DNA from: Candidatus Zixiibacteriota bacterium
Lineage (GTDB): Bacteria; Zixibacteria; MSB-5A5; DSPP01
Assembly: GCA_022614805.1 (NCBI GenBank)
Contig: JAKEHY010000009.1
Location: 5,118-69,117 of the forward strand
DNA length: 64,000 nt
Direction: 5' to 3'
Shown: positions 12,228 to 56,428 of the stretch, piece after piece
Layout of the letters: each line of letters begins with the position of its first letter
How positions within the stretch are numbered: position 1 is the stretch's first letter
Made by a program: the position numbers and the translations under genes
The notes under the pieces: model-generated
The model's database searches: none
The model's input: only the letters and a program-made list of their open reading frames with translations
What the model was told of the DNA's origin: nothing

Positions 12228-12244
12228 ACTTACCGTTCAAGTTA

Positions 12245-12280: not shown

Positions 12281-12294
12281 AATTTCAGACAAAT

Positions 12295-34067: not shown

Positions 34068-34413
34068 ATCCCCCTCGTCAAAAAGCTTTTTTGCCCCGTT
34101 TCTTTTATCGGAAAATCCCGCCAAAGCTTGATTGCATTCGGCCGGAAAGTTCTTTGAAACAAATGATTTGGAACGAAGCCGCCCGGTTGGGTTCCGGCCT
34201 TAACGGTCGGGTTTCGACGCGCGGCATTGCCTGCCCGAGCCGGCACGGCTCGAGTCAACCAGGGAAAATGCCGTCTGCGAAAATCGATTGAAACGAAAAA
34301 TTGCGGAAAGAATGAAAAAGCAAACAACGGAAGAAAGACGGCTTGAGACCGCCCCGCCTGTACCGCCTTTCTCTTTCGTTTTTCGGGATTTGTTATGACG
34401 CAGCCGGATGAGC

Positions 34414-39366: not shown

Positions 39367-41084
39367 CGCAAGGCCACCTCAAGGGCAAAACCGACCGTTT
39401 TCTGGCTGCCGAATTTCTCCTCCGATTTGGAAACGACTTTCACCCTCCCGAAAAAGGGGGAATGCTCCAGCCGGCGGATGAATTCGACCACGACGGCATC
39501 CGTCCGTTCATACGGGGCGGCAGCCGTTCCGGAAATTTCCAGTTTCTCGAACACCCCGTGCTTTTGGCGGGCGGAAAGGGAATCGAGCATCAGCGGCAAA
39601 AGGGTCACCCGCGCCAGCTCGATTTCCGGCGGAGTGAGGTTGGACAGCTCCTTCATATGCCAGGGGAAAACGGCCGGATGGCGGACGAACTGGGAAAGGA
39701 AGTTTTGCGTGGAGAGGATTTTTTGTTCCAAAAAGGCGGCCTGGGAGAAGCCGGGCACGGCCTGCAACCGGGCCAGTTCCTTTTCAAGCCCTCCGACCAG
39801 CGCTTCCGCAGCGTGCAGCCGGTACAATTGAAATCCTTGAAAAAGAACCGCCACAGCCAAAACCGGGAGGGAGAACCGGAAAACAAGACGATTTTGGTGC
39901 TGAAGCCGGAAGGATTTTTCAACCGCTTCGGGCAGCAAATAGGGGCTTTTGTCGCGCCCCAAAGCGGTCCCCAGGGCCTTGGCGAAAAAGGGGTACAGTT
40001 CGGCAAATTCGGCGGCGTTGTCGACCGCGTAGAAAAGCTCGCGGGACTGTGACAAAATGGAAACTTTGATGCCCAAAATGTTCTCGAAGTGGGCCGTAAT
40101 GGTGACGTCACCAGCCGGCAGTCCGGTCAAATACAATCGCGCGACCTTGCGGCCGGAAACCTGGGCCTGATAGAAATCAAGGGAGGAAAGCACTTCCGCC
40201 GTCAAGGGCTCCAAAAACTGAACCAAAGCCCCCGCCTCCAAATCGGACGGCTTCAGACCAATGGAGGAAAATTCACGGAAAAATTCCATTCCATTCTTTC
40301 CGTAGAGGGTGAAATAGGAACTTTTGGGAGAAATTTCCAAAACTCCAACCGCATCCGTTTCCTCGTGGGGAATTACCGGCAAGACGTCGGCAAAACCGAA
40401 CCCTCCCAGCGTGACCCCGGAAAGCGGTACGCCGGCCTGCAGGAACAAAGCGACCTGACGGTCCAAAAGGGAGCGTACAATGGCTACAAAAATCACCTCC
40501 GTTTTTTTGTAGCTTTCCCCTTCTTTTTGGACCGTCCGGTAGGTCCAATAGGCGTTTTCGATAGGAAAGGGGGTTTGTTTGCGGGCCTCCCACAAGACGG
40601 CCTGCTTCTCTTCCGATTTTTTCTTCAAAGCCGGAATGGTGAAACGGCGAAAAAGCACGCCCGGTCCCTGGATGGAAAGGTAAAACCGGGCCCGGGGGTA
40701 GCGGCCGGGCGGCACCAATTCCTGCAGGTATTCTATTAAAGCCCGCTCCTTGTCCGCCTCGTCGAAATCGGGCGTGGGAGCCAGGTCGTGAATGCCAAAA
40801 TCGGCGAGCTCCCATTTCCACCCCAGACGAACGCTGGCTCGGGGTTTTTTGGCCAGCCGCACCCAGCGGAGCTGGTCGGACACTAAATCGAACCCGAAAA
40901 AAACCTCCGGCTCGTAGCGCCACCAGCTTTTCCACCGCCAAACTTGGCGGCCCAAACTGGCAGTCAAGCCGGACAGCCGGTCTTCAGAACCTCCCTTCAC
41001 CGGTTTGGAACGCAAAAGACCTGGCCGAGTTTCCTGTTTGCTCTCTTTTTTAATCCCCGGAAATTTCAAATCTCCCCCTGCCAA
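39363..41084 (-). CDS. PilM-PilN fusion (GspL-like) inner-membrane assembly protein
   Basis: 573 aa with an N-terminal actin-like PilM domain, a TM segment (LPVLAVAVLF), then a PilN-like periplasmic domain. Confidence 0.65.
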   Translation of the reverse strand: MAGGDLKFPGIKKESKQETRPGLLRSKPVKGGSEDRLSGLTASLGRQVWRWKSWWRYEPEVFFGFDLVSDQLRWVRLAKKPRASVRLGWKWELADFGIHDLAPTPDFDEADKERALIEYLQELVPPGRYPRARFYLSIQGPGVLFRRFTIPALKKKSEEKQAVLWEARKQTPFPIENAYWTYRTVQKEGESYKKTEVIFVAIVRSLLDRQVALFLQAGVPLSGVTLGGFGFADVLPVIPHEETDAVGVLEISPKSSYFTLYGKNGMEFFREFSSIGLKPSDLEAGALVQFLEPLTAEVLSSLDFYQAQVSGRKVARLYLTGLPAGDVTITAHFENILGIKVSILSQSRELFYAVDNAAEFAELYPFFAKALGTALGRDKSPYLLPEAVEKSFRLQHQNRLVFRFSLPVLAVAVLFQGFQLYRLHAAEALVGGLEKELARLQAVPGFSQAAFLEQKILSTQNFLSQFVRHPAVFPWHMKELSNLTPPEIELARVTLLPLMLDSLSARQKHGVFEKLEISGTAAAPYERTDAVVVEFIRRLEHSPFFGRVKVVSKSEEKFGSQKTVGFALEVALR

Positions 41085-41089
41085 GCGAA

Positions 41090-42235
41090 TTAGACGGAAA
41101 AGGTTATAATCGACCCGTCGGAAAATTCAACCGTGAAAGTTGTGCCGGCCATATTGGCGCCAGGGCAGCCGCCGGTCTGGCACTCGCGAAAATTTTGCAC
41201 CTCGATGGTTACGGTGGCGCCTGCGGCGATGGTTTGGGACGAACTGAAGCTGACAGTCTGGGTGGAGCCGAAGCGCGGGTTGGACTGGTTGGCCACCGTC
41301 GTTCCCCCCCAGCGAACCAGTTCGTAGTACGAAGCGGGCGTATGGCTGTACGTCAGCTTGACGCTGGTAACGTTGACGCTGGAGGAGCCGGAATTGCGCA
41401 CGTCGAAATCGAGCTGCTGGCCCCCCCCGGTGAGCGATGCCGTGCCGGAAACGTAGCTAAGCGACCCGCCCGAGCCGCCGCTTCCCCACAAGCTGCCCCT
41501 GAATTTGAAATCCAAAATGGTAGTGGAACGGGGCAAAACAACAGCCGTGCGTACCAGGGTATCGTTGGTGGGAGCATAAACGGCGGCCAGCGTTCGCACC
41601 CCCTGGGGAATCAGACCGGAAAAAGCATAATTCCCGGAGGCGTTGGGATTGGTGACGGCGGTGGTCGTTCCCCCCGTGCCGTTGGGATAGGTGATGCGAA
41701 TGCTGACGTTGGCGGCGGAGCTTCCGGGAGCGTTCCCCTGCCCATCCGTGACCACCCCCTGCACGGTGTTGGAGGTCAAATCGGCGGCGGCATTGGCATA
41801 TTGCTTGGTTATTGGGTTGCCGCCCGAACCGCTCGATGTGATAGCAACCCCGCCGGCATACGTGTAAAGATTGCCCCACCCGTCCGTTTTGTAATCGTTT
41901 GGATTCTGGGTAAAATCGTTCTGAATGTACGGCCCTCTCCAAGTGGCATAACCGCCCGGATTGGCGACCAGCCCGTCCAAATTGGTCGGCAAGGAGCCGA
42001 CGTCGCCGACGTAGCCGAAGTCGGAACGAACCCCGTTGGCGAACAAATCGGGATTGCCGGCAATCGCCCAGGAAAGTTTTTCCATCTCCTGTGTGGTGGC
42101 ATCCCAGCGGCTGTTGTCCAGGGCGACATCCATCGACTTAAAGGCAATCGCTCCGAGAATGCCAATGACGATAACCACCAGAAGAACTTCTATCAAGGTA
42201 AACCCTTTTTCCGAACTTTTTCTCAACTGTTTCAC
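41090..42235 (-). CDS. large pilin-like protein (381 aa) with prepilin N-terminus and a Gly/Ser/Thr-rich beta-rich C-terminal region; candidate minor or tip pilin
   Basis: MKQLRKSSEKG/FTLIEVLLVVIVIGILGAIA. A CarboxypepD_reg-like segment (VQGVVTDGQGNAPGSSAANVSIRITYPNGTGG). Confidence 0.7.
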   Translation of the reverse strand: MKQLRKSSEKGFTLIEVLLVVIVIGILGAIAFKSMDVALDNSRWDATTQEMEKLSWAIAGNPDLFANGVRSDFGYVGDVGSLPTNLDGLVANPGGYATWRGPYIQNDFTQNPNDYKTDGWGNLYTYAGGVAITSSGSGGNPITKQYANAAADLTSNTVQGVVTDGQGNAPGSSAANVSIRITYPNGTGGTTTAVTNPNASGNYAFSGLIPQGVRTLAAVYAPTNDTLVRTAVVLPRSTTILDFKFRGSLWGSGGSGGSLSYVSGTASLTGGGQQLDFDVRNSGSSSVNVTSVKLTYSHTPASYYELVRWGGTTVANQSNPRFGSTQTVSFSSSQTIAAGATVTIEVQNFRECQTGGCPGANMAGTTFTVEFSDGSIITFSV

Positions 42236-42242
42236 TTTCTTT

Positions 42243-42689
42243 TCAAAAACTGATGACGATGTTCGTCCCCGAACCGGTGGAGGTTATAGTCCGCGCCGTG
42301 GAATCATAAACATAGTTGACCCCCCAAGCATCATTCAGATAATCCCCGCCCGTGGAATCAATATACGGCCCGTGCCAACCCAGCCGGGTGTATGGATTCC
42401 AGACCGCAACGCCGCCTGGTCTGACCACCAAACCGGTTAAACTTGGCGGAAAGCTCCCCACGTCTCCCCGGTAGCCCCGGTCGGAAAAACGTCCGCTGGA
42501 ACTGACGGACGGATTTCCCATAATCCCTCCCTTCAGCCGCAGCATTTCCTCCTTGGTGGCGCTTGTTTTCGAACCGGAGATGACGTCGCCTATTTTGGGA
42601 ATTGCGACCGCGGCCACTATCCCCAAAACGACGATGATTAAAACCAGCTCCACCAGCGTAAATCCGGCTTTCGATTTCATACGCACCAA
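42243..42689 (-). CDS. type IV pilin/pseudopilin-like protein
   Basis: MVRMKSKAG/FTLVELVLIIVVLGIVAAVAIP. Confidence 0.75.
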   Translation of the reverse strand: MVRMKSKAGFTLVELVLIIVVLGIVAAVAIPKIGDVISGSKTSATKEEMLRLKGGIMGNPSVSSSGRFSDRGYRGDVGSFPPSLTGLVVRPGGVAVWNPYTRLGWHGPYIDSTGGDYLNDAWGVNYVYDSTARTITSTGSGTNIVISF

Positions 42690-42738
42690 CCATCCCGCCG
42701 GCCTATGGCGGGATGAAACAACAGAATTCCAACAACCA

Positions 42739-43167
42739 TTAGAGGTTGTTTTCGCCGGCCGTGTTGGTATTCGGCCAGATTTCTCCGGTGGCAGCCAAAT
42801 AGGCCCAGCCGCCGCGGGTGCCGACGATGACGCCCTTGGTCACGCCGGTGACGATTGAATCCGGAGCGCTGGTCGGCAGTTGGTACGGATTCGCCGGAAT
42901 GGCTTGCTCCATTACCACGCCCGGCGTGCCGAGCTCGGCCAAGGTGGGCCAGGTGGCCGTGCCGGTGGTCACCGCCCGGTTGGCGTAGAAAATGGAAACA
43001 CCCGAGCGCAGCCCGCCCAAAGCTCCCTTGCAGGCGGACAGTTTGGCCTGCGCGGAGATGTCCATATAACGGGGTATCGCCACCGCCGCCAGGATGCCCA
43101 GGACGACGATGATGATGACCAGTTCAATCAGGGTGAAGCCCGATTGATTCTTTGTTTTGAGAAACAT
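42739..43167 (-). CDS. type IV pilin/major pseudopilin-like protein (GspG/PilA-like)
   Basis: MFLKTKNQSG/FTLIELVIIIVVLGILAAVAIP. 142 aa. It is the first gene after pilC. Confidence 0.78.
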   Translation of the reverse strand: MFLKTKNQSGFTLIELVIIIVVLGILAAVAIPRYMDISAQAKLSACKGALGGLRSGVSIFYANRAVTTGTATWPTLAELGTPGVVMEQAIPANPYQLPTSAPDSIVTGVTKGVIVGTRGGWAYLAATGEIWPNTNTAGENNL

Positions 43168-43191
43168 ACTCCCTCCTTTTGGGTTTCGGTT

Positions 43192-44406
43192 TTACTTTTT
43201 AAACACGTTCAATAAATTCCACATCGGCAAAAAAACGGAAAGGGCGAAGAACAAAACAGTCGCCCCCAAGACCACGGTTAAAGCCGGCTCCACTAATTTG
43301 GAAAGCCGCCGGGTGGCGTACGCCACTTCCTGGTCGTAGTGAAAGGCCATCTCGGAAAGCATCCGGTCCAAAGCGCCGGACTCGCTGCCGACGGAAAACA
43401 TCTGCACGGCCAAAGGCGGGAAAACCGGCGAGCGCTCCAGCACCTCTTTCGGCTCCTTCCCTTCCACCATGCCGGCCTCCAGCCGCTCTATCTCCTCCGC
43501 CACGATTCGGTTGCCGATGGCCCCCCGCACCACCTGCAGGGACTGGATAATCGGCAGGCCGCTTTTGACCAACACCGAGAGCATATGGGAAAAACGGCTC
43601 ATCGCCACTCTTAGAAAAATTGTCCCCAAAATCGGCAGCTTCAGCTTAAACTCGTCAAGCCAAACTTCCCCTCGGTCGGTGGCCAACCAGCGTTTGAAAA
43701 AGTAAGCGGCAAAAAACAAAGCCGGGAGGAGATAATACCAATAGCTGCGAATAAGTACGCTGGTTCCCATTAAAATTCGGGTCGGCAGCGGCAATTCCGT
43801 ATTGAAGCGGGAAAAAAGAAAGGCGAATTTGGGAAAAACGAAGGCCACCAGAATCACGAAGGCGGCCGCCAGGGCGATGACTACCAAGGCGGGATAGCGC
43901 AAAGCGTCTTTTAAATCCTCTTTGGTTTTCATCTCCCGTTCCATAAATTCGGCCAGCCGGTCCAGCACCTGGTCGAAATGCCCGGTCGCTTCGCCGGTTT
44001 TGACGGAGGAGACAAACAGTTTCCCGAAGACTTTTTCCTGACGCAAAAAAGCGTCCGCCAGAGTGACTCCCGACTCCAAATCGGAGCGTATTTGTTCGAT
44101 GGCGGAGCGGAGTTGGGGATGGTCGGCCTGGGCAGACAACACAGCCAGGGCACGGAGAATGGGAATACCGGCCCGATAGAGGGTGGAAAGCTGGCGGGTG
44201 AAAACAACCAGCTCGGAAAGCGGCACCCGGCGGCCGCCCCACCGGAAGGCTTGCAGAATGCCTTCAGTTTTGCGTTCCACCACAAGGGGGATATACCCCA
44301 TACGGTCCAGCCGCAGGGAAACTTCCGAAGCGGTTTCGGCCTGCATCGTGCCGGACAAGGCAATACCCGTCCGGTCCACGGCGCGGTAGTTAAATTCCGG
44401 TAACAT
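43192..44406 (-). CDS. pilC: type IV pilus / T2SS inner-membrane platform protein (PilC/GspF family)
   Basis: 404 aa with two T2SSF repeats. Confidence 0.85.
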   Translation of the reverse strand: MLPEFNYRAVDRTGIALSGTMQAETASEVSLRLDRMGYIPLVVERKTEGILQAFRWGGRRVPLSELVVFTRQLSTLYRAGIPILRALAVLSAQADHPQLRSAIEQIRSDLESGVTLADAFLRQEKVFGKLFVSSVKTGEATGHFDQVLDRLAEFMEREMKTKEDLKDALRYPALVVIALAAAFVILVAFVFPKFAFLFSRFNTELPLPTRILMGTSVLIRSYWYYLLPALFFAAYFFKRWLATDRGEVWLDEFKLKLPILGTIFLRVAMSRFSHMLSVLVKSGLPIIQSLQVVRGAIGNRIVAEEIERLEAGMVEGKEPKEVLERSPVFPPLAVQMFSVGSESGALDRMLSEMAFHYDQEVAYATRRLSKLVEPALTVVLGATVLFFALSVFLPMWNLLNVFKK

Positions 44407-44533
44407 ATAGCAATCGTCTCACTTACGTTTAAGCAAACCCCCTATCAAGTCCTTGCTTTTTTTGACTCCTTCTCATCTTCGTTTCGTTCAGCGCCGAACC
44501 GTTTGAGGCCATGTCTAAATTCCCGCTCTCCGC

Positions 44534-46267
44534 TTAGGCGGGAATCAATTCCCCTTTCGGTATATCGGCAAAATCCCCGGCGGAGGTGACCCGCAAAACC
44601 TCCTCCACGGTGGTCAACCCGGCCAAAATCTTTTCCGCCCCGTCCTGCCGCAAAAGCTTCATTCCCTGTTTGCGGGCTTCGGCCAAAATGGCGGCCGTGG
44701 AAGAGCGGCCGGCTATCAACTCTCGAATCGAATCGGTCACCACGAGCATTTCAAAAAGACCGAGCCGGCCGGAAAAGCCGCTCTGCTTGCATTCCCGGCA
44801 GCCGGCGCCCCGGTGGAAAACGGCGTTCGGGTCGTCTATCCAGAGCTCCTTCTTGAGGGACTCCGGCACCGTCACTTTTTCCTTGCAAGCCGGACAGATG
44901 CGCCGCACCAGCCGCTGGGCCACCACCGAGATCAGGGAAGCGGCCAAAAGGTACGCCTCCACTCCCATATCCAAAAGACGGGCCGTCGTGGAGGGGGCGT
45001 CGTTGGCGTGCAGGGTGGACAACACGAGATGCCCGGTCAAAGCCGAGCGGACGGCGATTTCGGCCGTTTCCCGGTCGCGGATTTCTCCGACCATTATGAT
45101 ATCCGGGTCCTGCCGCAAAATCGAGCGCAGGGCGTTGGCGAAAAAAAGCCCGGCCTTTTCGTTGGTTTGCACCTGGGAGATAAAGGGAATGTGGTATTCC
45201 ACCGGGTCTTCCACGGTGATGATGTTTTTTTCGACGGAGTTCAGCTCCCGCAGCATCCCATAGAGGGTGGAGGTCTTGCCGCTGCCGGTCGGGCCGGTGA
45301 CCAGAATGAACCCTTCCGGTTTTTTCATCCCCTGGCGCAAGCGGGAAAGCAGGGCTGCGGGCAACCCGATTTTATCCAGATGGATGGCCAGGCTGGATTT
45401 GTCCAAAATTCTAAGCACCACCTTTTCGCCGAATATGGTGGGGAGGGTGGAAACGCGGAAATCGACTTCGTGCTTCTCCACCCGGTAGGTGAAGCGCCCG
45501 TCCTGGGGAAGCCGTTTTTCGGAGACATCCATATTGGCCATAATTTTGATGCGGGAAACGATGGCCGGGGCCAGCTCCCTGGGGGGGTTGGCCGCCTCGC
45601 GCATAAGGCCGTGAATCCGGAAGCGCACCCGCAAGTGGGCTTCTTCCGGTTCGATGTGAATATCGGAGGCCGTATCCCGAATCCCCTGCGTCAAAAGCAA
45701 ATTGACCAAGCGGATGATGGGGGCGTCGTCGGCCGCTCCGGCAATTTCTCCCGCCTTTCGGGAAACTTCCGCCAGTTCCTTGCCGAACTCTTCCGTCGGC
45801 AGCCCCATTTCCCGGACCACCTCTGCCACCGAATCCTGCACGGTGTAATAGTCCGAAATTGCTTTCTGAACCTGCGAAGGCGCCGCGATGACCCGGTTGA
45901 TTTCCAGCCCGGTGTGGTATTTTAGCTCCTCGACCGCAATCAAATCCAAGGGGTCAACCATGGCGACCGTGAGCGCGCCCCCCAGTTGCAGGATGGGAAT
46001 AAGCCGGTGTTTTTTGGCCAGTTCCACCGGAACCCGCCGGATAACCTCGGGGGCGATGACCAGGTTGTCGACGTTGACTTTGGGGATGGAGAGTTTTTCC
46101 GAAATTATCGAGAGGAAGTCCTCTTCGGTGATAACCCCCTGGCGGATGAGGATGTCCCCCACCCGCTCGCCGGTCTTTTTCTGGATTTTTAAAGCTTCAT
46201 CCAGCTGCTTTTGGGTAACCAGCTTTTTCTCCAAAAGCAGCTCGCCGATGCGCTTTTTGCTTTCCAT
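44534..46267 (-). CDS. pilB: type IV pilus / T2SS assembly ATPase (PilB/GspE family)
   Basis: N-terminal T2SSE_N domain, Walker A GPTGSGKTST, and a tetracysteine motif (CPACKEK...CRECKQSG). Confidence 0.88.
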   Translation of the reverse strand: MESKKRIGELLLEKKLVTQKQLDEALKIQKKTGERVGDILIRQGVITEEDFLSIISEKLSIPKVNVDNLVIAPEVIRRVPVELAKKHRLIPILQLGGALTVAMVDPLDLIAVEELKYHTGLEINRVIAAPSQVQKAISDYYTVQDSVAEVVREMGLPTEEFGKELAEVSRKAGEIAGAADDAPIIRLVNLLLTQGIRDTASDIHIEPEEAHLRVRFRIHGLMREAANPPRELAPAIVSRIKIMANMDVSEKRLPQDGRFTYRVEKHEVDFRVSTLPTIFGEKVVLRILDKSSLAIHLDKIGLPAALLSRLRQGMKKPEGFILVTGPTGSGKTSTLYGMLRELNSVEKNIITVEDPVEYHIPFISQVQTNEKAGLFFANALRSILRQDPDIIMVGEIRDRETAEIAVRSALTGHLVLSTLHANDAPSTTARLLDMGVEAYLLAASLISVVAQRLVRRICPACKEKVTVPESLKKELWIDDPNAVFHRGAGCRECKQSGFSGRLGLFEMLVVTDSIRELIAGRSSTAAILAEARKQGMKLLRQDGAEKILAGLTTVEEVLRVTSAGDFADIPKGELIPA

Positions 46268-48024: not shown

Positions 48025-50823
48025 CTACTGCCCGGTCGGCGGCTGAAGGCCGTATTCCTTGAGCTTCAGGCGAAGGGTTGATTCCGGAATTTTTAAGAGT
48101 TCGGCGGCCCGCTTCTTCACCCCCCCTGTTTCGACCAAGGCCCGTTGTATATGCTTTTTCTCCGCTTCGGCCAGGAATTCATAGAGGGAAAAGGCGCGCG
48201 GATGGCCGCCGGGCAATTTTTCATCCGGCCCGAAAAACTTGGCGGAAAGCAGCTCGGGGGCAACCACCCCGGACTCGTCCGCCAAAACCGCCAGCTTGCG
48301 CACCTCGTTCTCCAGCTCCCGCACGTTGCCGGGCCAGTCATGGGCGCACAAAAGCTCGAAGGCGGCCGGATTAAAGCAGAGCTTCTTGCCGCCGGCATAT
48401 TTGGCGGCAAAATGCTCCAACAAGAGGGGCACATCCTCCTTCCGTTCCCGAAGCGACGGCAGCTTCAAAGCAAAGACGGAAAGCCGGTAGAACAGGTCCT
48501 GGCGGAAGAGTCCTTTCTCGGTCAAGCCCTTCAAGTCCTTGTTGCCCGCGGAAATCAAGCGGACGTTCACCCGGCGCGGTCGGGTTTCCCCGAGACGGAC
48601 CACCTCTTTTTCTTCCAAAACGCGCAAAAGCTTCGCCTGTACGGAAAGCGGTATCTCCGTAACCTCGTCGAGGAAAAAAGTGCCGCCGTCCGCCTCCTCA
48701 AAAAGGCCCGGCTTATCCCGGTCGGCCCCGGTAAAAGCCCCCCGGCGGTGGCCGAAGAGCTCGGACTCGAGCAAAGTCTCCGGCAGGGCCGCGCAGTTGA
48801 CCGACACGAATCTCTGTTCCCGGCGGTTGGACTGGAAATGAATGGTCTTGGCCAACAAGTCCTTCCCCACGCCGGTTTCACCTAAAAGCAGAATGGACAG
48901 GTCGGAGTCCTTCACGCGGGCCGCCGCTTCGATGGTCGAAAGTAAAAGAGGCGAACGGGTAATGATGTTGGGAAAGGCGCATTTCTCTTCCAGCGTGGCC
49001 AGAAGCCGTTCGTTCTCCCGGGCCAGATTCTTTTTGGAGAGATGCGAAAGCTCCAGGGCAAAATGAGATGCGGCCGCGGTGGCCAGGTTCAACTCCTCCT
49101 GGAAAAACGGCCGGGCCTGTTTGGATAAATAAAGCATTCCGGCGATCTCCCCTTCCACCATCAAAGGAAGACTCAAAACCGAAAGCATCCTATCTTTTTC
49201 CAGCACCTCCAACCGGGCGCCGGTGGCATCCCCGTCACCGGGGCCGGGAATCGTTTCCGGCAACTCGCCGGCCTGGGTAACCAACTGCTGCAATCCATTC
49301 GCAAGACCGTACAAGGCCGCCCCTTCCGCCTGCACTTCACCGACCAGAAGCGAAAGTTTGGCTTCCGGCGATTCCGCCCGGCTCAAATTCAGAAACAAAG
49401 CGTAGCGGTTTTCCGGCGAGTAGGCGAGGGAAACTTTCCGTTCGGAGAGTTGAGCGGAAAGGGCTCGCAAACGGGCCAGGTCTTCTTCTGAAAAAGCTAA
49501 AACCTCTTTATGATTCTCCAAAATTTCCAAAAGCGGCTCCAGCGGCCCGAGCCGGCCGCCGCCCAACAGCTTCTCGGCAGCCCAAAAACAGGGTTCGCGA
49601 AAGACGGGGGCCTTTTTCAGCCGCGCGAGCAGGCCGGTCACCTCGTTCAAAAATTTCTGGCAGCGGCCCTCGTCTCCGGCGGGGGACAGAACCAGCGCGA
49701 GAATCTTCAAGCGGGCCTCCTCGATCGGCAAAGTTACGGATGGCAGAAAGGAGAGCGCCTCCTCGAGGAGGGATTGAGCCTTCTCCGTTTGGCCGGTTTC
49801 AAACCAGGCCTGCGCCAAAACCCGCAGGGAAGCCAAAATTTCCTCTTTTTCCGAAAGCACCTGCGCCAGCGCAAGCGCCTCTTCGGCGCGGGAAATGGCC
49901 GCTCCCGGCCGGCCCTGGGCCAAAAGCAACTCCGCCCAGCGCCTTTGCACCTGCGTCACCAGGCCCGATTGGGGCGCCAGCCGCCGGCTGATTTCCAGAG
50001 CGCGGGTGTACTCCCCCTCGGCCTGGACCCACTCCTTCTGCCAGAAAAAAGCCTCCCCCCGATACTCGTGATAAATTGTTTCTTCCCGCAACAGCCGTTC
50101 GGCCTGAATGAGCCTTTTTGCCTCTGTAAACTCCGGCTCCATTTCGGACCGGCGCCCGGTGAGAGCGTAAAGGTAGGCCAAGGACAGGTGGTTGCGCGCC
50201 AGGCTGGCGGGGGCCTCCACCACCCGGTTTACCAGAAGGGCCAGTCGCAAAGATTTTTCGGCCTCCTCCCAACGGCCGGAAAGAAATTGAACCCGGCCCA
50301 GATTCCCCCAAGCCCTCCCTTCCCCGACCCCGTCGGAGGCATTGCGGGCCGCATCCAGGCTCTCCAGCAGGTACTCCTCGGCCGTTTTCAAATCGGAACG
50401 GATAAAGGCCAGCCGGGCCAATTCGCTGTAGGTTTGGGCCGTTCCTTTTAGGTCGGAGGCGCGCCGATAATTGGCCAAAGCATCCAAAAGTAATTTTTCC
50501 GCCTCGCGCAACTCTCCCGTTAAGGCAAACAAGAGCCCCAAGAGGTAAAGCGATTCGCCCGCCTCCGCATGGTTGGCGGTCAGCCGGTAACCGCCGTAGG
50601 CCTGCCGGGCCTTGGCTATTGCTTCGGCGTAGTTGTTTTCCCGGTATAATATCCAAGCCCACAAAAGGGAGGTTTCCGCCACTTCCTCCGGAGAAAAAAA
50701 CGTCGGCGGCCGGGTCTCCCGGGCGGCAAGGAACTCCCGGGCCTCGGCTACCCTTCCTTCCTCCAGAAGGCGCCGCGTCTGGGCAAAGCTTTGCCAGCTC
50801 TCCTGCGTTTCGGCCAGCTTCAT
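48025..50823 (-). CDS. sigma-54-dependent transcriptional activator with a ~450-aa N-terminal TPR array and a GAF-like domain (TPR-GAF-AAA+-HTH)
   Basis: Walker A GETGVGKD, a GAFTGA motif, and a C-terminal Fis-type HTH. The N-terminus has multiple TPR-like helices. Start trimmed to the ATG at 50823 (MKLAETQ...), just downstream of the small-protein gene. Confidence 0.8.
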   Translation of the reverse strand: MKLAETQESWQSFAQTRRLLEEGRVAEAREFLAARETRPPTFFSPEEVAETSLLWAWILYRENNYAEAIAKARQAYGGYRLTANHAEAGESLYLLGLLFALTGELREAEKLLLDALANYRRASDLKGTAQTYSELARLAFIRSDLKTAEEYLLESLDAARNASDGVGEGRAWGNLGRVQFLSGRWEEAEKSLRLALLVNRVVEAPASLARNHLSLAYLYALTGRRSEMEPEFTEAKRLIQAERLLREETIYHEYRGEAFFWQKEWVQAEGEYTRALEISRRLAPQSGLVTQVQRRWAELLLAQGRPGAAISRAEEALALAQVLSEKEEILASLRVLAQAWFETGQTEKAQSLLEEALSFLPSVTLPIEEARLKILALVLSPAGDEGRCQKFLNEVTGLLARLKKAPVFREPCFWAAEKLLGGGRLGPLEPLLEILENHKEVLAFSEEDLARLRALSAQLSERKVSLAYSPENRYALFLNLSRAESPEAKLSLLVGEVQAEGAALYGLANGLQQLVTQAGELPETIPGPGDGDATGARLEVLEKDRMLSVLSLPLMVEGEIAGMLYLSKQARPFFQEELNLATAAASHFALELSHLSKKNLARENERLLATLEEKCAFPNIITRSPLLLSTIEAAARVKDSDLSILLLGETGVGKDLLAKTIHFQSNRREQRFVSVNCAALPETLLESELFGHRRGAFTGADRDKPGLFEEADGGTFFLDEVTEIPLSVQAKLLRVLEEKEVVRLGETRPRRVNVRLISAGNKDLKGLTEKGLFRQDLFYRLSVFALKLPSLRERKEDVPLLLEHFAAKYAGGKKLCFNPAAFELLCAHDWPGNVRELENEVRKLAVLADESGVVAPELLSAKFFGPDEKLPGGHPRAFSLYEFLAEAEKKHIQRALVETGGVKKRAAELLKIPESTLRLKLKEYGLQPPTGQ

Positions 50824-50827
50824 AGGC

Positions 50828-51142
50828 TCAGAAAAAAGAAGTGAACGACTTCTTGCTGCTTGGTCCGCTTTTAAGGGTTGCGACCGCCTGCTGCGATTGG
50901 TACTTGACCCAGATAAGAACGGGATAAACTTGGTCCTTGGTATACCAGACGGCCAACAACATGTATTCATCCGTGACAAGCACAACCTCGACGCGGTAAG
51001 CACCCTTTACCTTATCCCAGGGATGTTCGTCGCCAGTTGGAGTGGGGGAAGCCGTGGCCGCACGGGTCGGCTCCGTACCCAAAAGAAAAAACACTACACC
51101 CAATAAAATGATTATTCCGAGAAACCACCGCATCATTTTCAT
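50828..51142 (-). CDS. small exported hypothetical protein (104 aa)
   Basis: Start trimmed to the ATG at 51142 with GGGAGGAG upstream. Signal peptide MKMMRWFLGIIILLGVVFFLLG. It lies 4 bp upstream of the sigma-54 activator gene. Confidence 0.55.
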   Translation of the reverse strand: MKMMRWFLGIIILLGVVFFLLGTEPTRAATASPTPTGDEHPWDKVKGAYRVEVVLVTDEYMLLAVWYTKDQVYPVLIWVKYQSQQAVATLKSGPSSKKSFTSFF

Positions 51143-51444
51143 ATCTCCTCCCTCTGCGTCCACACAGGGTCTATGGGCAGACACCAGCGGCCAGCCCGGC
51201 GGCGACATTGGTTGGGGGAGCCGGGCGTGCACATATGTTACGCAATAACTGCGAACTTTGTCAAGAATTTTTGTACCCAAACGGCAAATTTTTAAAATAC
51301 TCTAATCTCTTGTGAAAAGTTTCTCATTTTAGTCCGGCCGTTTGGGCCCTATTCAGGAAACCTAACCAAAAGCGGCACGTAAAGATAGGTGACTTCTTGC
51401 GGCCGCTGTGTATATTCCGGCTGAAAGAAAATCAAGGAGGTTCG

Positions 51445-52581
51445 ATGAAAGGAAAATACGCAGTTTTTCTGGCCCTGTCCGCAGTTTTTGTTTTTTCCCT
51501 TCCCGGCCACGCCACCCGGCTGGTGGGAAGCGAACATTTTTCGTTGAAGGCGGACAGCCTGGTGGATGACGACCTCGTTTTGGCCGTCAAAGAAGCCTCC
51601 CTTTCCGGCCACATAACGGGCGACCTTTTGTTTGCGGGCAGCGGCCTGATGCTGTCTGGACCGGTGGATGGGAATGTTTTGGCCGGCGGCCAGCATCTCT
51701 CCCTCAAGGGTCCGGTGGGCGGGTCCGTGCGGGCCTTCTGTTCCGATTTGACTATTGAAAACAGAGTGGGACGCAACCTGGCCGTCTTTTGCGGAACGGC
51801 CCGGTTGCCGGAGGGGGGCGTGGTGGAAAAGGACGCGCACGTTTTCAGCGGCAATTTGATGGTGGGTGGAAACATAAACGGCAGTCTGGTCTTCTACGGA
51901 GGGGAAGTGGTAATCAGCGGCAAAGTCGGGAAAGGGGCCAAAATCAAAGCCGACAAAATAACGCTTGCCTCCACCGCCCGGATTGAAGGGGACTTTACTT
52001 ACACCAGCAAAAAGGAGGCGAAAATCGAACCGGGGGCGGTGGTCACCGGCCAGACCCTCCATACCCTCCCAAAGAAAAAGGAGGGGAAAGGGGTCTCGGG
52101 CTGGATTTGGTGGGTGGTGTGGCGCACGAGCGAGCTCGTTACCGGCTTTCTTTTGATTGCGCTGTTCCGAAAACAGATGAATGTGCTCAAAGAAACGGTT
52201 GCCGTTTCCTTCCTGAAAACATTGGGCGTCGGCCTTTTGAGCTTCGTCGTGATTCCGGTAATGGCCTTGCTTTTCGCCGTCATCATAATAGGGCTCCCAA
52301 TTACTTTGGTTCTGACCGCTTTTTACCTGGTGGCATTGGTTTTGGCCTGCAATTTCACGGGCCTGCCGCTGGGGGACGGGGTCTTGCGGCTGTTCAGAAA
52401 AGATAAACCGTTTTCGCTTTACGCATCGATGACCGTTGGAGTGCTTTTGATCCAGCTTTTGGAAGAAGTTCCCTACTTTGGGATGTTGGTGCTTTTGGTG
52501 ACCGCCTGGATTGGGTTGGGAGCCATAATTTTGGGAAGCTATCGGCTTTCCATCCAACTGCCGGCGCCAAGCGGCAGTTAA
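51445..52581 (+). CDS. beta-helical repeat (bactofilin/DUF4097-like polymer-forming family) protein with signal peptide and a C-terminal 4-TM domain
   Basis: RBS AAGGAGG at 51434-51440. Signal peptide MKGKYAVFLALSAVFVFSLPGHA. Repeated G-x-V-x-G-x-L/V-x pattern (GDLLFAGSGLMLSGPVDGNVLAGGQHLSLKGPVGGSV...). The C-terminal ~150 aa is hydrophobic. Confidence 0.6.
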   Translation: MKGKYAVFLALSAVFVFSLPGHATRLVGSEHFSLKADSLVDDDLVLAVKEASLSGHITGDLLFAGSGLMLSGPVDGNVLAGGQHLSLKGPVGGSVRAFCSDLTIENRVGRNLAVFCGTARLPEGGVVEKDAHVFSGNLMVGGNINGSLVFYGGEVVISGKVGKGAKIKADKITLASTARIEGDFTYTSKKEAKIEPGAVVTGQTLHTLPKKKEGKGVSGWIWWVVWRTSELVTGFLLIALFRKQMNVLKETVAVSFLKTLGVGLLSFVVIPVMALLFAVIIIGLPITLVLTAFYLVALVLACNFTGLPLGDGVLRLFRKDKPFSLYASMTVGVLLIQLLEEVPYFGMLVLLVTAWIGLGAIILGSYRLSIQLPAPSGS

Positions 52582-52621
52582 GAGCGGACGCTTTCTTCCC
52601 AGACGGACCTTTATTGTCGCA

Positions 52622-53413
52622 ATGGATTTAAATCTGAAAGATAAAACCGTTCTGGTGGCGGCCGCCAGCTCCGGCATCGGGCGGGCGGCCGCCGAACTTT
52701 TTTTGGTCGAGGGAGCCAGAGTCTCCATCTCCTCGCATAATCCGGAAAAGCTGGCCCAAGCGGTTGAAACGTTGCACCAAAAAACCGGCCGCCGCCCCGT
52801 TTCTTTCGAGTGCGACCTGACCAAAGAAAATGAAATCGAAAAATGGGTGAAGGAATCGGAAAAAACCTGCGGCCCGGCGCAGATTTTGGTGACCAACACC
52901 GGCGGCCCCCCGGTCGGGAGCTGGGACGGGCTTTCACCGGAAGACTGGCAGCAGGCGCACGATTTGGTTCTCCGGTCGGTGATGAAACTGACCCGCCTTG
53001 TGGCGCCGCCGATGCAAAAATCCAACTGGGGCCGGATAATTCTCATCTCTTCGGTGGCGGCCAAAGAGTCCATTCCTTCTTTGGCCTCCTCTTCCACCTA
53101 TCGCGCCGGACTTCTGGGATACGCCAAAGTGCTGTCCATCGATTTGGGAAAATACAATATCACCGTCAATACCGTCCTGCCGGGCTACACTTTGACCGAC
53201 CGTCAAAAGGAGCTGGCGGAAAAAACGGCGGCCCAGACGGGAAATACTCCGGAGGAGATTATCAAAAGCTGGGAGGCCGGGATTCCCCTGGGGCGGACGG
53301 CCCGGCCGGAGGAAATTGCCGCTGCGGTCGTATTTCTGGCCTCGGAAAAAGCGAGCTACATCACCGGCGCCGCCCTGCCGGTGGACGGCGGCAGAATCTC
53401 GACCATCGTTTAG
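52622..53413 (+). CDS. SDR-family oxidoreductase (FabG-like)
   Basis: TVLVAAASSGIG Rossmann motif and a YxxxK motif. Confidence 0.85.
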   Translation: MDLNLKDKTVLVAAASSGIGRAAAELFLVEGARVSISSHNPEKLAQAVETLHQKTGRRPVSFECDLTKENEIEKWVKESEKTCGPAQILVTNTGGPPVGSWDGLSPEDWQQAHDLVLRSVMKLTRLVAPPMQKSNWGRIILISSVAAKESIPSLASSSTYRAGLLGYAKVLSIDLGKYNITVNTVLPGYTLTDRQKELAEKTAAQTGNTPEEIIKSWEAGIPLGRTARPEEIAAAVVFLASEKASYITGAALPVDGGRISTIV

Positions 53414-53415
53414 CC

Positions 53416-56184
53416 TTACTGAATGATCACGATTTTGCCGATGTGCCGCCCCTCGGAGGATTCCACCACAAACAGGTATAACCCCGCCGCCACTGGCTGC
53501 GCATTCCGGCTTAAAAGGTCCCAAAACTCATACCCCGAGTCCGTTGCCGTCGGCTCTTTCTCGTGGTTTATCTGCTGCACCAAATCTCCATCCAGAGTGT
53601 AAATCCGAATCGTACATTTGGGAGGCAGGTTGATGAAGTTTATCCGTTTGCTGCTTTGGGGGCGGCCACTGGCCGGCTGGTTCTTCTCAAAGTGGCTGTA
53701 GTCCTCGTCTATCCGGTAGGGATTGGGATAAACCGAAATCTTCAACTCCCCCGCCTTTCGGGCCGAATCCGTGGCCACCGGATAAACCAACTGGGCCACG
53801 GCCGAAGGGGGCGGCGCCTGCGGCGCTATCGTATTGTAGTAACTGGCGAATCCATTGTCGAAAGGAACGACCGCCAGAAAGAGCGGCTGGGAGGGAAAAA
53901 GCCCGGTCAATTTCATCTGGTACCAGTAGGCGCTGTCGTTGTTCAGGTCGGTGACCGAAGGGTACATCCGAGCTTTGCTCAAACCGGCATTATATCCTTC
54001 CCGGATAAAATAAAAGAAGGTATCCACTGGTATGATATTAAGCTGTCCGGTAGTGCCGCAGGAATCGCAAAAACGGACCCGGACGGCTGTTTTGGTCGAG
54101 TCCGGGTTGCACCAGGGATTGGGACGGGGCCTTTCCGGCAGGGGACGGATAGTTGCCAACCTCAATCGTATCGCCAAAATTGGGGCATTGTACTTATCCG
54201 GGTTAATCGGCTTGGTGATGTTCCCCGGTTTGTTCAAACAGGTATCCCAATTCACAGCAAACCTATTCTGAATCTCTCCATATGCCAAAGGCAGCCCCAG
54301 GGCCGGCTCCCAGCGGGTGTCGAGCGTGTCATCATCGTAATTGCCTTCGTCATTCGGGTCCGTGTAGCCGTTCCCGTTGACATCCGGGTTCAGGTAATGC
54401 AGCCGCCAGTTCACCTTATCGAAGTAACCGATGATGGTATAGTTGATGCCGTCGGTGGACATCTGCACGGTGTAGCCCTCGAAGTCCCGGAAACCGGTAA
54501 AGGGGTCGATGGTATCCTCGGTCTCCCGTCCGAACCAGCGGATGGTCACCTCCCCTTCGGCGGTGGAAAATTCCACTTTCGGAAATGGCGGGGGAACCGG
54601 CCCTTTGAAGTCGGGGATGCCGTCCCCTATAAGACGGATGTCTTGGGTTGGCACGTGGCCATCGGCTTGACAGATAACAGTTGAAAGGATATTCTCGTTG
54701 TCAAAGACGTTTTTGGCCATCCGGGCGTTGGCGATTAAAGCCCCAAGGTTAAGACGGTTCTGGTAGGCCAGGATGCGGGTGGTGTCCAAAAAGTCGGTGG
54801 ATGGAAACTGAAAATTGGAAGCATAGTTGGCCGCGTCGGTGTGAAGCTTCTCCCCCGCCAGAAGGGCAAAGGTCAGAGGCACGCTTTCCCCCACTTCCAA
54901 GTCGAACGGCCCGGCCGATAACAAAAAACGGGAATCGGCGCCGCCGGCGAGGCGGATGGCGCCCTCCGCCGGGAAGAGGGGCGGGCGCCAAATTTCCTGA
55001 AAGGGGAGATTCCGGTCAAGGGCGGAATAAATCTGGTCGTAGTCGAGTTCCCGGTTGGAAAGATAAAAATACTTCATCTTATCCCCTATCGGCTGGCCAA
55101 ACTGTCCAAGGGTATTCTTCCGACCGGGGATTTGCTGCGGCCCCCAGTCCAGAACCCGGTTGCTGTCCGGCACCCACCAGTTGAAGGAGATGTTCTTGTT
55201 GCCAAGAGTACCATCAAATTTGAGAGCTTCTCCCGCCCGCAAGACCCGCAGGCCGATGACCCCCGTGGGGCTTCGCATCCCATACTCCCCGTTATCTTCC
55301 GGGTCGCCGTCGTTGTCATAGGCGTAGGCCAGATTCAAGGTATCCCGGCAAATCAAAAGGCTTGGGTTAATCCCTGGAAAATTGGCGGCTCCATCGGCGA
55401 TTTTCAAAAAAGCCCCCGGCTTGAATGCGCTGTAATCGTCCGTATGAGTCAATTGACTGGCATTGACGCTGCCGATGTCCGGGTCCAGCAAAATGCCAAA
55501 ATAAGCCTGCCGTATCGGCTCCGGGCCAAGGTTGGTTATTGTGTAATCCAGCAAGACCCAATCCTTCGCAAAATCGGCCGACCAGGAATAGCTCCGCTGC
55601 TCGACTTTCAGACCTATGGGATGAAAGAGCTCTCCGGTCTCCGGGTCGGGAGTGATAACCAGCCGGGGGTCTGTGAGGGTATCGTAAAAAACCGAAATCA
55701 AGTCCAAGTCCGATACGGCCGCCGGGTTGTAATACGGACTGCTTGGCCGGGCCGAGCGTTTGATGATAGTGCCGGCTCCGCCTGCCTCCGGAAAGAGCTC
55801 CCGAATTCCCACCCAGCCGTCGCTGCCGGTGGAAACCAGTGTATCCTCCCCAACGATTCCTCCCACCCATACAGCTCCTTGAAAAAGATACTCCAGCCCC
55901 GAACCTCCCGGAAACTCCGCCGAAGAGGAGAAACCGCCCGTAAGGCAGTCCCGAAAAAAAATGTTTCGTTGATTGCCGAGAATACCCCAGTTTGAAACGG
56001 TCAGCCAGAGGCGTCCGGTTTTGTGAGTGCACTGCTCCAAGCTGGGAAAAGCCGTGATTTTGGGCAGCCCGGAAAGGGCCGGGCGGGCGGTATCAATAGC
56101 TATCATTCGGCCCAAAGCGGGCGGCAAAAGAAGGAAAAATAAAACCAAACCAAGAATTTGCCTTTTCGTATGAAACACGGCCAA
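53416..56184 (-). CDS. large secreted protein (922 aa) of an uncharacterised family, with a variant T9SS-like C-terminal sorting domain; paralog of 61951..64000
   Basis: Signal peptide MAVFHTKRQILGLVLFFLLLPPALG. C-terminal ~115 aa: ISVYPNPYRID...INFINLPPKCTIRIYTLDGDLV...GLYLFVVESSEGRHIGKIVIIQ. Conserved internal motif IPDFKGPVPPPFP. Confidence 0.65.
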   Translation of the reverse strand: MAVFHTKRQILGLVLFFLLLPPALGRMIAIDTARPALSGLPKITAFPSLEQCTHKTGRLWLTVSNWGILGNQRNIFFRDCLTGGFSSSAEFPGGSGLEYLFQGAVWVGGIVGEDTLVSTGSDGWVGIRELFPEAGGAGTIIKRSARPSSPYYNPAAVSDLDLISVFYDTLTDPRLVITPDPETGELFHPIGLKVEQRSYSWSADFAKDWVLLDYTITNLGPEPIRQAYFGILLDPDIGSVNASQLTHTDDYSAFKPGAFLKIADGAANFPGINPSLLICRDTLNLAYAYDNDGDPEDNGEYGMRSPTGVIGLRVLRAGEALKFDGTLGNKNISFNWWVPDSNRVLDWGPQQIPGRKNTLGQFGQPIGDKMKYFYLSNRELDYDQIYSALDRNLPFQEIWRPPLFPAEGAIRLAGGADSRFLLSAGPFDLEVGESVPLTFALLAGEKLHTDAANYASNFQFPSTDFLDTTRILAYQNRLNLGALIANARMAKNVFDNENILSTVICQADGHVPTQDIRLIGDGIPDFKGPVPPPFPKVEFSTAEGEVTIRWFGRETEDTIDPFTGFRDFEGYTVQMSTDGINYTIIGYFDKVNWRLHYLNPDVNGNGYTDPNDEGNYDDDTLDTRWEPALGLPLAYGEIQNRFAVNWDTCLNKPGNITKPINPDKYNAPILAIRLRLATIRPLPERPRPNPWCNPDSTKTAVRVRFCDSCGTTGQLNIIPVDTFFYFIREGYNAGLSKARMYPSVTDLNNDSAYWYQMKLTGLFPSQPLFLAVVPFDNGFASYYNTIAPQAPPPSAVAQLVYPVATDSARKAGELKISVYPNPYRIDEDYSHFEKNQPASGRPQSSKRINFINLPPKCTIRIYTLDGDLVQQINHEKEPTATDSGYEFWDLLSRNAQPVAAGLYLFVVESSEGRHIGKIVIIQ

Positions 56185-56428
56185 ACCTGCCTCTTCCTCG
56201 ACAGAACTTAAAACAAATCAAACCCGCCTGCCCCAAGTGGGGGTTGGGGCGAAACGGCCACCCAGCCAGAGCGTGGCCGCCTGCTATCCCGCGCTCCGTT
56301 TTTATAATTTACGCAGGAAAAACGGATATTGTCAAATAGAATCGATTCTTTTGACTTTCCAACCGTCGGCCGAATTGAGACCCCAATCGGCTTGACCCTC
56401 CTTGCCGAAGGATGTTGATTACAGGTGG

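What the first reader, a model, noticed from the sequence alone, without database searches (positions are those of the whole stretch)
53416..56184. Second, free-standing paralog of the ~900-aa variant-CTD secreted family
Together with the partial gene at the 3' edge this makes a two-member family inside 10 kb. Both share long collinear blocks (NISFNWWVPDSNRVLDWGPQQIPGRKN / TSFNWWTPNGNVTLDWGPQKAPGRKN; IPDFKGP(V/L)PPP; YPNPYRID-DYSH(F/Y)E) but differ enough to suggest functional diversification. No enzyme motif was recognised, so this is a candidate uncharacterised surface or adhesion family.
Basis: seen in the sequence. Interest (0 to 1): 0.55.

Follow-up and report, generated by a model that had tools for sequence, protein, structure and literature searches.

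The report
Unannotated secreted sugar-binding-fold surface protein family
The gene is real and is one of at least three copies in this Zixibacteria genome of a large, unnamed family of exported proteins that combine a sugar-binding-type fold with a type IX secretion tail; it is most likely a cell-surface glycan-capture protein, which is useful to know but not a new kind of system.

Summary
Window 53416-56184 (-) is an intact 922-aa gene, 44-45% identical (E 5e-179) to the gene cut by the 3' edge, which is 926 aa when complete. A third paralog (78% identical) lies on another contig of the same assembly.

No Pfam or NCBIfam model covers the core in this protein or in 50 homologues. A confident AlphaFold model gives these parts:
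- a signal peptide;
- an FN3 domain;
- a variable beta domain;
- a type IX secretion (T9SS) C-terminal domain carrying a 22-residue insertion.

The family is large: 1274 clusters at E<=1e-30 and at least 580 loci, mostly in Zixibacteria. It often forms tandem arrays of 2-7 copies.

The edge paralog sits in a conserved operon: TonB-dependent receptor, family protein, PorV/PorQ-like barrel, lipoprotein. The copy in the finding is monocistronic.

Best reading (0.5): a T9SS-exported, surface-held glycan-binding protein. Catalysis is not excluded. I rate it a new variant of a known kind, of moderate interest.

The parts
53416..56184 (-). Free-standing paralog, complete CDS (922 aa, TTG start, stop at 53416-53418)
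   Evidence: ORF list and translation. The same 922-aa gene is called in the identical contig L083. The NCBI record starts at M27 (896 aa, P0001), which removes the signal peptide that homologues have. dN/dS is 0.17-0.27 against orthologue and paralogs.
56110..56184 (-). Sec signal peptide (residues 1-25, ...KRQILGLVLFFLLLPPALG|RM), SPI type with no lipobox Cys
   Evidence: Read from the sequence. Homologues have the same n/h/c layout ending in a conserved A-R-M. The AF2 model is disordered over residues 1-40.
54685..56052 (-). Galactose-mutarotase-like beta-supersandwich core (residues ~45-500). It includes the DNDGD (290-294) Ca-site-like motif and the SFNWW...LDWGP conserved loop.
54379..54684 (-). 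GDGIPDF Ca-site-like motif followed by an FN3-like domain (residues ~501-602)
53749..54378 (-). Variable middle beta domain with indel-rich, low-confidence loops (residues ~603-812)
   Evidence: Low pLDDT over 607-621, 672-689 and 712-715. Gap-rich columns in the family alignment. It is the least conserved folded domain between paralogs: 46% against the edge copy and 70% against P0002.
53419..53748 (-). T9SS type-A-like C-terminal domain with a 22-residue insertion after YPNPY (residues 813-922)
56190..56335 (-). Own expression signals: promoter-like TTGACA-18-TAAATT (56335..56306) and Shine-Dalgarno-like GAGGAAGAGG (56199..56190), 5 nt before the TTG
   Evidence: These are consensus matches only; function is not shown.
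61951..64000 (-). Edge paralog (C-terminal 682 of 926 aa; the N-terminus lies beyond the window)
   Evidence: The full length and the upstream 1132-aa TonB-dependent receptor are seen in the identical contig L083.
60933..61922 (-). PorV/PorQ-family outer-membrane beta-barrel, immediately downstream of the edge paralog
   Evidence: NCBIfam NF033709 PorV_fam scores 208.7 bits (cutoff 90). It is below the equivalog cutoffs for PorQ (106.9 of 220) and PorV (90.4 of 250). Pfam PorV E 1.6e-9.
58772..60898 (-). 708-aa lipoprotein (lipobox ...LIGSG|C), last gene of the operon, no known family
   Evidence: It is syntenic in 12 related loci.
56402..58741 (+). PMT_2 (GT-C type) glycosyltransferase with a TPR domain, divergent from the free copy and conserved next to the operon
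   Evidence: Synteny in L003-L010, L043, L066, L072 and L083. L083 aa, so the start may be at 56429.

Best explanation
The gene encodes a Sec-exported, T9SS-targeted cell-surface protein whose working part is a Ca-site-rich galactose-mutarotase-like supersandwich that binds a carbohydrate polymer.

Proposed path:
1. Signal peptidase I removes residues 1-25.
2. The C-terminal beta-sandwich acts as a type-A-like T9SS signal and takes the protein across the outer membrane.
3. The protein stays on the surface. It is held either through its unusually conserved CTD, bound to the PorV/PorQ-family barrel encoded 5 kb away (as PorU and PorZ are held by PorV and PorQ), or after sortase processing.
4. 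The conserved N-terminal core engages the ligand. The FN3 domain and the indel-rich middle domain act as spacer and specificity elements.

The sister paralog does the same job inside an operon with a TonB-dependent receptor, so the family probably feeds captured substrate to TonB-dependent import. The free-standing copy would be an independently transcribed variant with a diverged specificity.

Shown: gene integrity, paralogy, purifying selection, domain folds, family size, and synteny.
Inferred: the export route, the mode of anchoring, the ligand class, and the link to import.
For: Intact gene under purifying selection (dN/dS 0.17-0.27).

Signal peptide is conserved in homologues.

The AF2 model is confident (pLDDT 83.3, pTM 0.77).

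About 17 acidic, polar or aromatic residues are at least 93% conserved over 240 members: W106, D114, T115, D168, S198, W201, N218, D250, D290, N335, W336, W337, Y372, E379, D381, H448, D495.

Distant family members carry canonical Por_Secre_tail domains above the Pfam threshold, at 32.9 and 39.2 bits. 33 of 51 members give weak hits to the PorZ tail.

A canonical T9SS cargo and a PorV/PorQ-family barrel are in the same window.

In the 13 loci where they were detected, PorV-like genes follow a family gene, and 14 loci have a TonB-dependent receptor directly upstream. The operon is conserved in L003, L004, L005 and L083.

PorU:PorV and PorZ:PorQ are a precedent for CTD-retaining proteins held by such barrels (PMC5562754).

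The CTD is the most conserved domain between paralogs.

Modules fused to the core elsewhere are surface or assembly modules: dockerin, TSP3, FG-GAP, Big_5 and cohesin-like.
Against: The T9SS CTD models score below their thresholds on this protein (15.9-18.5 bits against 23; Pfam gives none).

The T9SS core machinery (SprA/Sov, PorKLMN, PorU) was not looked for in this genome, and I found no paper that links Zixibacteria and T9SS.

No ligand is known.

The free copy has no barrel gene and no receptor gene of its own.

Many arrays elsewhere sit beside M16 and S8 peptidase genes, not carbohydrate genes.

The receptor gives no hit to the SusC/RagA model at E<=1e-3.
Confidence: 0.5

Rival explanations
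1. It is a secreted carbohydrate-active enzyme of a new family. The supersandwich itself would be the catalytic domain, as in aldose-1-epimerases and GH174 endo-fucanases, and it would cleave or modify a polysaccharide at the cell surface.
Against: No sequence-level link to any CAZy, Pfam, NCBIfam or PDB family was found. The best fold matches are to non-catalytic N-domains. The equivalence of catalytic residues could not be tested because no coordinates were available for superposition. Multigene tandem arrays with variable loops look more like binding-specificity diversification.
Confidence: 0.25
2. It is part of a protein or peptide-harvesting apparatus. The family would capture proteinaceous substrates, or hold peptidases, at the surface for TonB-dependent peptide import, working like RagAB.
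For: In many Zixibacteria the tandem arrays lie in a conserved neighbourhood with two M16 peptidases, an S8 subtilase with PKD and dockerin domains, and an MFS transporter. A TonB-dependent receptor precedes the family gene in 14 loci.
Against: The fold class is carbohydrate-associated throughout the PDB hits. The evidence is adjacency only. The window's own copies are not next to peptidase genes.
Confidence: 0.1
3. It is a T9SS machinery component, a Zixibacteria analogue of PorU or PorZ that forms an attachment complex with the adjacent PorV/PorQ-like barrel, rather than a cargo.
Against: There are 3 or more copies per genome, arrays of up to 7, and 30-60% divergence between copies, which is unlike single-copy machinery. 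No Cys reaches the invariant (100%) or nearly invariant (>=90%) lists in the 57-sequence alignment, so a C25-type Cys-His dyad has no candidate Cys. The model shows no beta-propellers. The matches are confined to the CTD. One related genome (L004) lacks the free copy altogether.
Confidence: 0.05

Closest known systems
T9SS type A CTD cargo proteins (TIGR04183 / PF18962; solved CTDs such as mirolase 8qb1 and PorZ 5m11)
   Same: N-terminal Sec signal plus a C-terminal ~80-110-aa beta-sandwich with YPNP[FY], I.IY.L.G.LV and G.Y....GK.V..K motifs. The fold superposes on the mirolase CTD at 1.5 A. Distant family members carry canonical CTDs above threshold.
   Different: This protein's tail is below the model thresholds. 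It has a conserved 22-residue insertion (RIDxDYxxxGxE...) after YPNPY and a second small insertion. It is the most conserved part of the protein between paralogs.
PorU:PorV and PorZ:PorQ attachment sub-complexes of Porphyromonas gingivalis (PMC5562754)
   Same: A large surface protein with a CTD is encoded directly upstream of a PorV/PorQ-family barrel. The weak tail similarity is specifically to PorZ and PorU. One barrel gene per family gene in double-pair loci fits a 1:1 complex.
   Different: There is no C25 peptidase domain and there are no propellers. The family is multi-copy and divergent. The barrel is neither a PorV nor a PorQ equivalog. The free-standing copy has no barrel gene.
Galactose-mutarotase-like supersandwich domains (N-domains of GH15 glucoamylase 1lf6, GH94 phosphorylases 2cqs/1v7v and GH116 7w2t; aldose-1-epimerases 3nre/3mwx; GH174 8jd7; YidC P1 3blc)
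   Different: Identity is only 6-15% and no sequence-profile link was found. About 455 residues, with long conserved inserted loops and DNDGD-type motifs, compare with ~200-300 aligned. There is no attached (alpha/alpha)6 catalytic domain.
SusC/SusD-type and RagAB TonB-dependent surface capture systems of Bacteroidota (background knowledge)
   Same: A TonB-dependent receptor with an N-terminal CarboxypepD_reg domain is encoded directly upstream of surface-protein genes in one operon.
   Different: The receptor gives no SusC/RagA hit at E<=1e-3. The partner is not a helical SusD lipoprotein but a T9SS-tailed beta-protein plus a PorV-like barrel plus an unknown lipoprotein.
Type B CTD cargo with adjacent PorP/SprF adaptor genes in Flavobacterium (sprB-sprF; background knowledge, not tested here)
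   Same: The logic of cargo gene followed by its own outer-membrane barrel gene, repeated in tandem.
   Different: The barrel family is different (PorV/PorQ, not PorP/SprF). The CTD is type-A-like. The duplicated barrels are identical within a genome rather than cargo-specific.

Membership tests
T9SS type A CTD cargo | C-terminal domain scores above the curated threshold of TIGR04183 / PF18962 | tested here: not met
   TIGR04183 scores 15.9 bits on the full protein and 18.5 bits on the C-terminal half, against a cutoff of 23. Pfam gives no hit. Distant members of the same family do pass (P0149 at 32.9 bits and P0164 at 39.2 bits against 27), and some homologues are named 'T9SS type A sorting domain-containing protein' by NCBI.
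T9SS type A CTD cargo | C-terminal Ig-like beta-sandwich fold like solved CTDs | tested here: met
T9SS type A CTD cargo | N-terminal Sec signal peptide | tested here: met
   Read from the sequence and from homologue N-termini. No dedicated predictor was run.
T9SS type A CTD cargo | T9SS machinery encoded in the genome | tested here: inconclusive
   A PorV/PorQ-family barrel (208.7 bits) and a canonical CTD cargo (51 bits) are in the window. A PorX-like Response_reg+PglZ gene is near the operon in L005. SprA/Sov, PorKLMN and PorU were not searched.
Galactose-mutarotase-like superfamily (fold level) | Beta-supersandwich topology | tested here: met
Aldose-1-epimerase (enzyme family) | Catalytic His/Glu residues in equivalent positions; Pfam Aldose_epim hit | tested here: inconclusive
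   There is no Pfam hit. Residue equivalence could not be checked without model coordinates.
GH15 / GH94 / GH65 / GH116 glycoside hydrolases and phosphorylases | (alpha/alpha)6 catalytic domain following the N-terminal supersandwich | tested here: not met
   The model is almost all-beta, with only short helices at 368-376, 406-413 and 453-494. Alignments cover only 258-322 residues of the targets. No sequence hits were found.
PorU (T9SS sortase, C25-like) | Gingipain-like peptidase domain with a Cys-His dyad | tested here: not met
   NF033707 hits only the last ~55-100 residues, at 11-14 bits against a cutoff of 420. No Cys reaches the invariant or >=90% lists of the family alignment.
PorZ | Two beta-propeller domains plus a CTD | tested here: not met
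   NF052228 matches profile positions 682-756 only, at 19-21 bits against a cutoff of 260. The model has no propellers.
SusC/SusD polysaccharide utilisation pair | SusC/RagA-type receptor (TIGR04056) followed by a SusD-like helical lipoprotein | tested here: not met
   The receptor gives only sub-threshold generic TonB-receptor hits and no SusC/RagA hit at E<=1e-3. The downstream genes are the beta-rich family protein, a PorV-like barrel and an unknown lipoprotein.

The most novel reading that the evidence does not exclude
The family and its partners form a previously undescribed outer-membrane module, a TonB-dependent transporter served by T9SS-delivered capture proteins. Each capture protein would be held permanently by its CTD in its own copy of a PorV/PorQ-like barrel. 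In effect this is a Sus-like nutrient capture system built from T9SS attachment-complex parts. The 'CTD + barrel' cassette would be kept identical within a genome by gene conversion while the ligand-binding passengers diversify.
Probability: 0.2. Interest if true: 0.7.

Novelty: new variant of a known kind. Interest (0 to 1): 0.45.

Why it matters
Zixibacteria are uncultured but widespread sediment and soil bacteria. This family is one of their large, expanded and entirely unannotated surface-protein families: 1274 clusters at 50% identity with E<=1e-30, and up to 7 tandem copies in a locus.

Assigning it a fold, a likely export route and a genomic partner set turns about 1300 sequence clusters of 'hypothetical proteins' into testable candidates for how these organisms capture polymers.

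Tried and rejected
- **Pfam and NCBIfam on both paralogs:** nothing but sub-threshold tail hits. Pfam on 50 homologues found nothing on the core.
- **PDB sequence search with the family profile:** only the PorU tail at E 0.21.
- **PorU/PorZ-analogue idea:** rejected because of copy number, the absence of a conserved Cys, and the absence of propeller or peptidase domains.
- **The 582-aa ORF at 51349-53097 (-):** first taken as the downstream neighbour, it is spurious (low-complexity translation, no family hits). The real genes there are on the + strand, a bactofilin-like gene and an SDR.
- **Sigma-54 promoter upstream of the gene:** prompted by the nearby sigma-54 activator. There is no match in 56185-56401, and matches window-wide are fewer than chance.
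- **'Cognate barrel per cargo' specialisation:** contradicted by duplicated barrels that are 100% identical within genomes.
- **Literature on Zixibacteria and T9SS:** no papers found.
- **AFDB50 fold library:** unavailable.
- **Look-up of P0001's contig:** not on record. Solved by looking up the PorV-like protein instead.
- **PDB sequence search with the operon lipoprotein:** no hit.
- **Residue-level comparison with GH174 or mutarotase active sites:** not possible, because no model coordinates were available.
Full report
**Observation**

The ORF list shows a 922-codon ORF at 53416..56184 on the minus strand, and a long ORF that reaches the 3' edge at 61951..64000. BLASTP gives one collinear alignment of 686 columns at 44% identity, E 5e-179. 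A six-frame BLAST of the window finds no third copy.

I recovered a longer public contig by looking up the neighbouring PorV-like protein. This contig (L083; GCA_973680415.1, 509,772 bp) is 100% identical to window 50933-64000. It shows that the edge copy is 926 aa long and 45% identical to the free copy over its full length.

The best database match is a Zixibacteria MAG protein annotated as 896 aa (P0001). A 78%-identical third paralog (P0002, 957 aa) lies on another contig of the same assembly.

**Gene model and independence**

The NCBI start (M27) cuts off a typical signal peptide (KRQILGLVLFFLLLPPALG|RM). Homologues have equivalent signal peptides ending in a conserved A-R-M, and the other assembly aa. 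The TTG start is preceded by AAGAGG at a 5-nt spacing, and there is a promoter-like TTGACA-18-TAAATT about 120 nt upstream.

The apparent downstream 582-aa ORF is spurious. The real neighbours are a convergent SDR gene and a bactofilin-like gene on the + strand. Upstream lies a divergent PMT_2/TPR glycosyltransferase gene. The gene is therefore monocistronic, so 'free-standing' is correct.

dN/dS is 0.21 against P0002, 0.17 against the L003 orthologue and 0.27 against the edge paralog. It is a functional gene.

**What the protein is**

Neither Pfam nor NCBIfam recognises the core, and Pfam finds nothing in the cores of 50 homologues. A family profile finds nothing in PDB sequences except the PorU tail at E 0.21.

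An AlphaFold2 model built from a 57-sequence alignment is confident (pLDDT 83.3, pTM 0.77) and almost all-beta.

  - The catalytic (alpha/alpha)6 domain of those hydrolases is absent.
- **The tail compared with a canonical CTD.** Aligned with a canonical T9SS CTD from the same window (20632-21693; TIGR04183 at 51 bits), the tail shares the YPNP[FY], LP, Y.L.G..V, G.Y and terminal K positions. It also has a 22-residue insertion.
- **Ca-site-like motifs.** Invariant DNDGD and GDGxPD motifs look like Ca2+ sites. This is inferred from the sequence pattern only.

**Family size, spread and organisation**

An exhaustive profile search of 1.84 billion cluster representatives finds 1274 clusters at E<=1e-30 and 4835 at E<=1e-10. 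A scan of one genome per species finds at least 580 loci, almost all labelled Zixibacteria, or MAGs with uncertain labels.

Of 77 fetched loci, 43 contain 2-7 near-full-length copies, head to tail, with a median gap of 26 nt.

The N-terminal core is modular. Elsewhere it is joined to dockerin, TSP3 repeats, FG-GAP/Big_5 or cohesin-like modules, and to canonical Por_Secre_tail domains that pass the Pfam threshold.

Across 240 members, W106, D114, T115, D168, S198, W201, N218, D250, D290, N335, W336, W337, Y372, E379, D381, H448 and D495 are at least 93% conserved.

**Context**

The edge paralog belongs to a conserved operon: a TonB-dependent receptor (CarboxypepD_reg + Plug + barrel), then the family protein, then a PorV/PorQ-family barrel, then a ~650-740-aa lipoprotein. 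A PMT_2/TPR gene lies opposite.

An NJ tree separates an 'operon' clade from a 'free-standing' clade, and both are conserved across related genomes. One relative (L004) lacks the free copy, with PMT_2 lying directly beside the SDR gene.

In a sister group of genomes the operon holds two family-plus-barrel pairs.

**Mechanism**

The evidence best fits a Sec- and T9SS-exported surface protein whose supersandwich binds a carbohydrate polymer. It would be held at the outer membrane through its CTD, and in the operon form it would cooperate with a TonB-dependent transporter.

The anchoring idea rests on three things:
- the adjacency of the barrel gene;
- the CTD being the most conserved domain between paralogs (60-87%, against 46-70% for the middle domain);
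- the precedent that PorU and PorZ keep their CTDs and are held 1:1 by PorV and PorQ (PMC5562754).

Export route, anchoring, ligand class and the link to import are all inferences.

The main rival is that the supersandwich is catalytic. GH174 is described as an unusual beta-sheet-dominated glycoside hydrolase fold, and the number of conserved polar residues is high. The remaining rivals are a role in protein harvesting and a machinery role. The harvesting idea rests on arrays lying next to M16 and S8 peptidase genes. The machinery role (a PorU/PorZ analogue) is disfavoured by copy number, the lack of a conserved Cys, and the lack of peptidase or propeller domains.

**Comparison and novelty**

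The protein works like a T9SS cargo and shares the fold of galactose-mutarotase-like domains. It fails the sequence-model thresholds for the CTD families. It also fails the defining features of the GH15/GH94/GH65/GH116, PorU, PorZ and SusC/D families. I file it as a new variant of a known kind: a T9SS-type surface protein with an undescribed passenger family. All database members are 'hypothetical protein' or are named only for the tail.

**Verdict**

The gene is real, secreted and uncharacterised. Interest is moderate at 0.45. The most interesting elements are the operon with the receptor and barrel, and the homogenised CTD-plus-barrel cassettes in related genomes (see Noticed in passing); both lie outside the finding's own coordinates.

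Noticed in passing
L007, L008, L009, L010, L043, L072, L066 (e.g. L007 6544-7793 vs 10172-11421; L072 8052-9600 vs 11626-13174): In seven MAGs with two tandem 'family gene + PorV-like barrel' pairs, the two barrel genes are 100% identical at nucleotide level over ~1 kb. The identity runs 150-600 nt upstream into the CTD-coding 3' end of the family genes in six of the seven (in L066 it begins ~100 nt inside the barrel gene) and stops sharply at the barrel stop codon. The passenger parts are only ~60% identical at protein level and belong to old clades. This suggests gene conversion of a CTD-plus-barrel cassette, or an assembly artefact; only a look at the original reads can decide between the two.
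   Followed up: partly
L019, L021, L027, L039, L040, L058, L064 (e.g. L019 494-18624): Tandem arrays of 3-4 family genes sit in a broadly conserved neighbourhood. Pfam on L019 (plus one L058 protein) shows two M16 peptidase genes, a weak EF-hand-like protein, an S8 subtilase with PKD and dockerin, then the array, then on the opposite strand an MFS transporter and a TPR protein (a SpoIIE/FHA/GAF protein in L058); the other loci were compared only by ORF size and C-terminal tails.
   Followed up: partly
window 58772-58840 (-) and L019/L021/L064 proteins upstream of arrays: Recurrent C-terminal tails of the form F.GGP.P..C: the window lipoprotein ends ...KWFLGYEPPGGPPPCCPGPCP, and others end ...FMFSGGPAPCGC or ...YFWVEGPPPPACP. 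In some proteins the tail follows a dockerin-like segment. It may be a phylum-specific C-terminal tag.
   Followed up: no
window 56106-56184 (-): The NCBI annotation of this gene (P0001, 896 aa) starts at the internal ATG (M27) and so loses the signal peptide. The TTG at 56184, with a Shine-Dalgarno-like sequence, is the better start and is the one called in assembly GCA_973680415.1.
   Followed up: yes
window 51349-53097 (-) vs 51397-52581 (+) and 52622-53413 (+): A 582-aa minus-strand ORF is an antisense artefact (low-complexity translation, no family hits). The real genes are a bactofilin-like protein and an enoyl-ACP-reductase-like SDR on the + strand.
   Followed up: yes
L004 12327-15452 vs L003 16068-22153: The free-standing paralog is present between the PMT_2 and SDR genes in the window, L003, L006 and L083, but it is absent in L004, where PMT_2 directly abuts the SDR gene. 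This is a lineage-specific gain or loss.
   Followed up: partly
window 20632-24325 (+): A 354-aa protein has a canonical T9SS type A CTD (TIGR04183 at 51 bits). It is followed by an 805-aa FG-GAP repeat protein. These are further likely surface proteins of the same organism.
   Followed up: partly
window 25758-27092, 39366-46267 (-); 32703-34199 and 48025-51003 (-): A type IV pilus / T2SS-like cluster is present (secretin, PilM/N, a GspG-like pseudopilin, GspF and GspE), along with two sigma-54 activators, one of which has TPR and GAF domains. No sigma-54 promoter was found upstream of the family gene.
   Followed up: partly
L005 1-1016 (+): A Response_reg + PglZ gene, which is the domain pair of PorX (the T9SS regulator of Bacteroidota), lies about 9 kb upstream of the receptor-family-barrel operon in a related Zixibacteria contig.
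   Followed up: no
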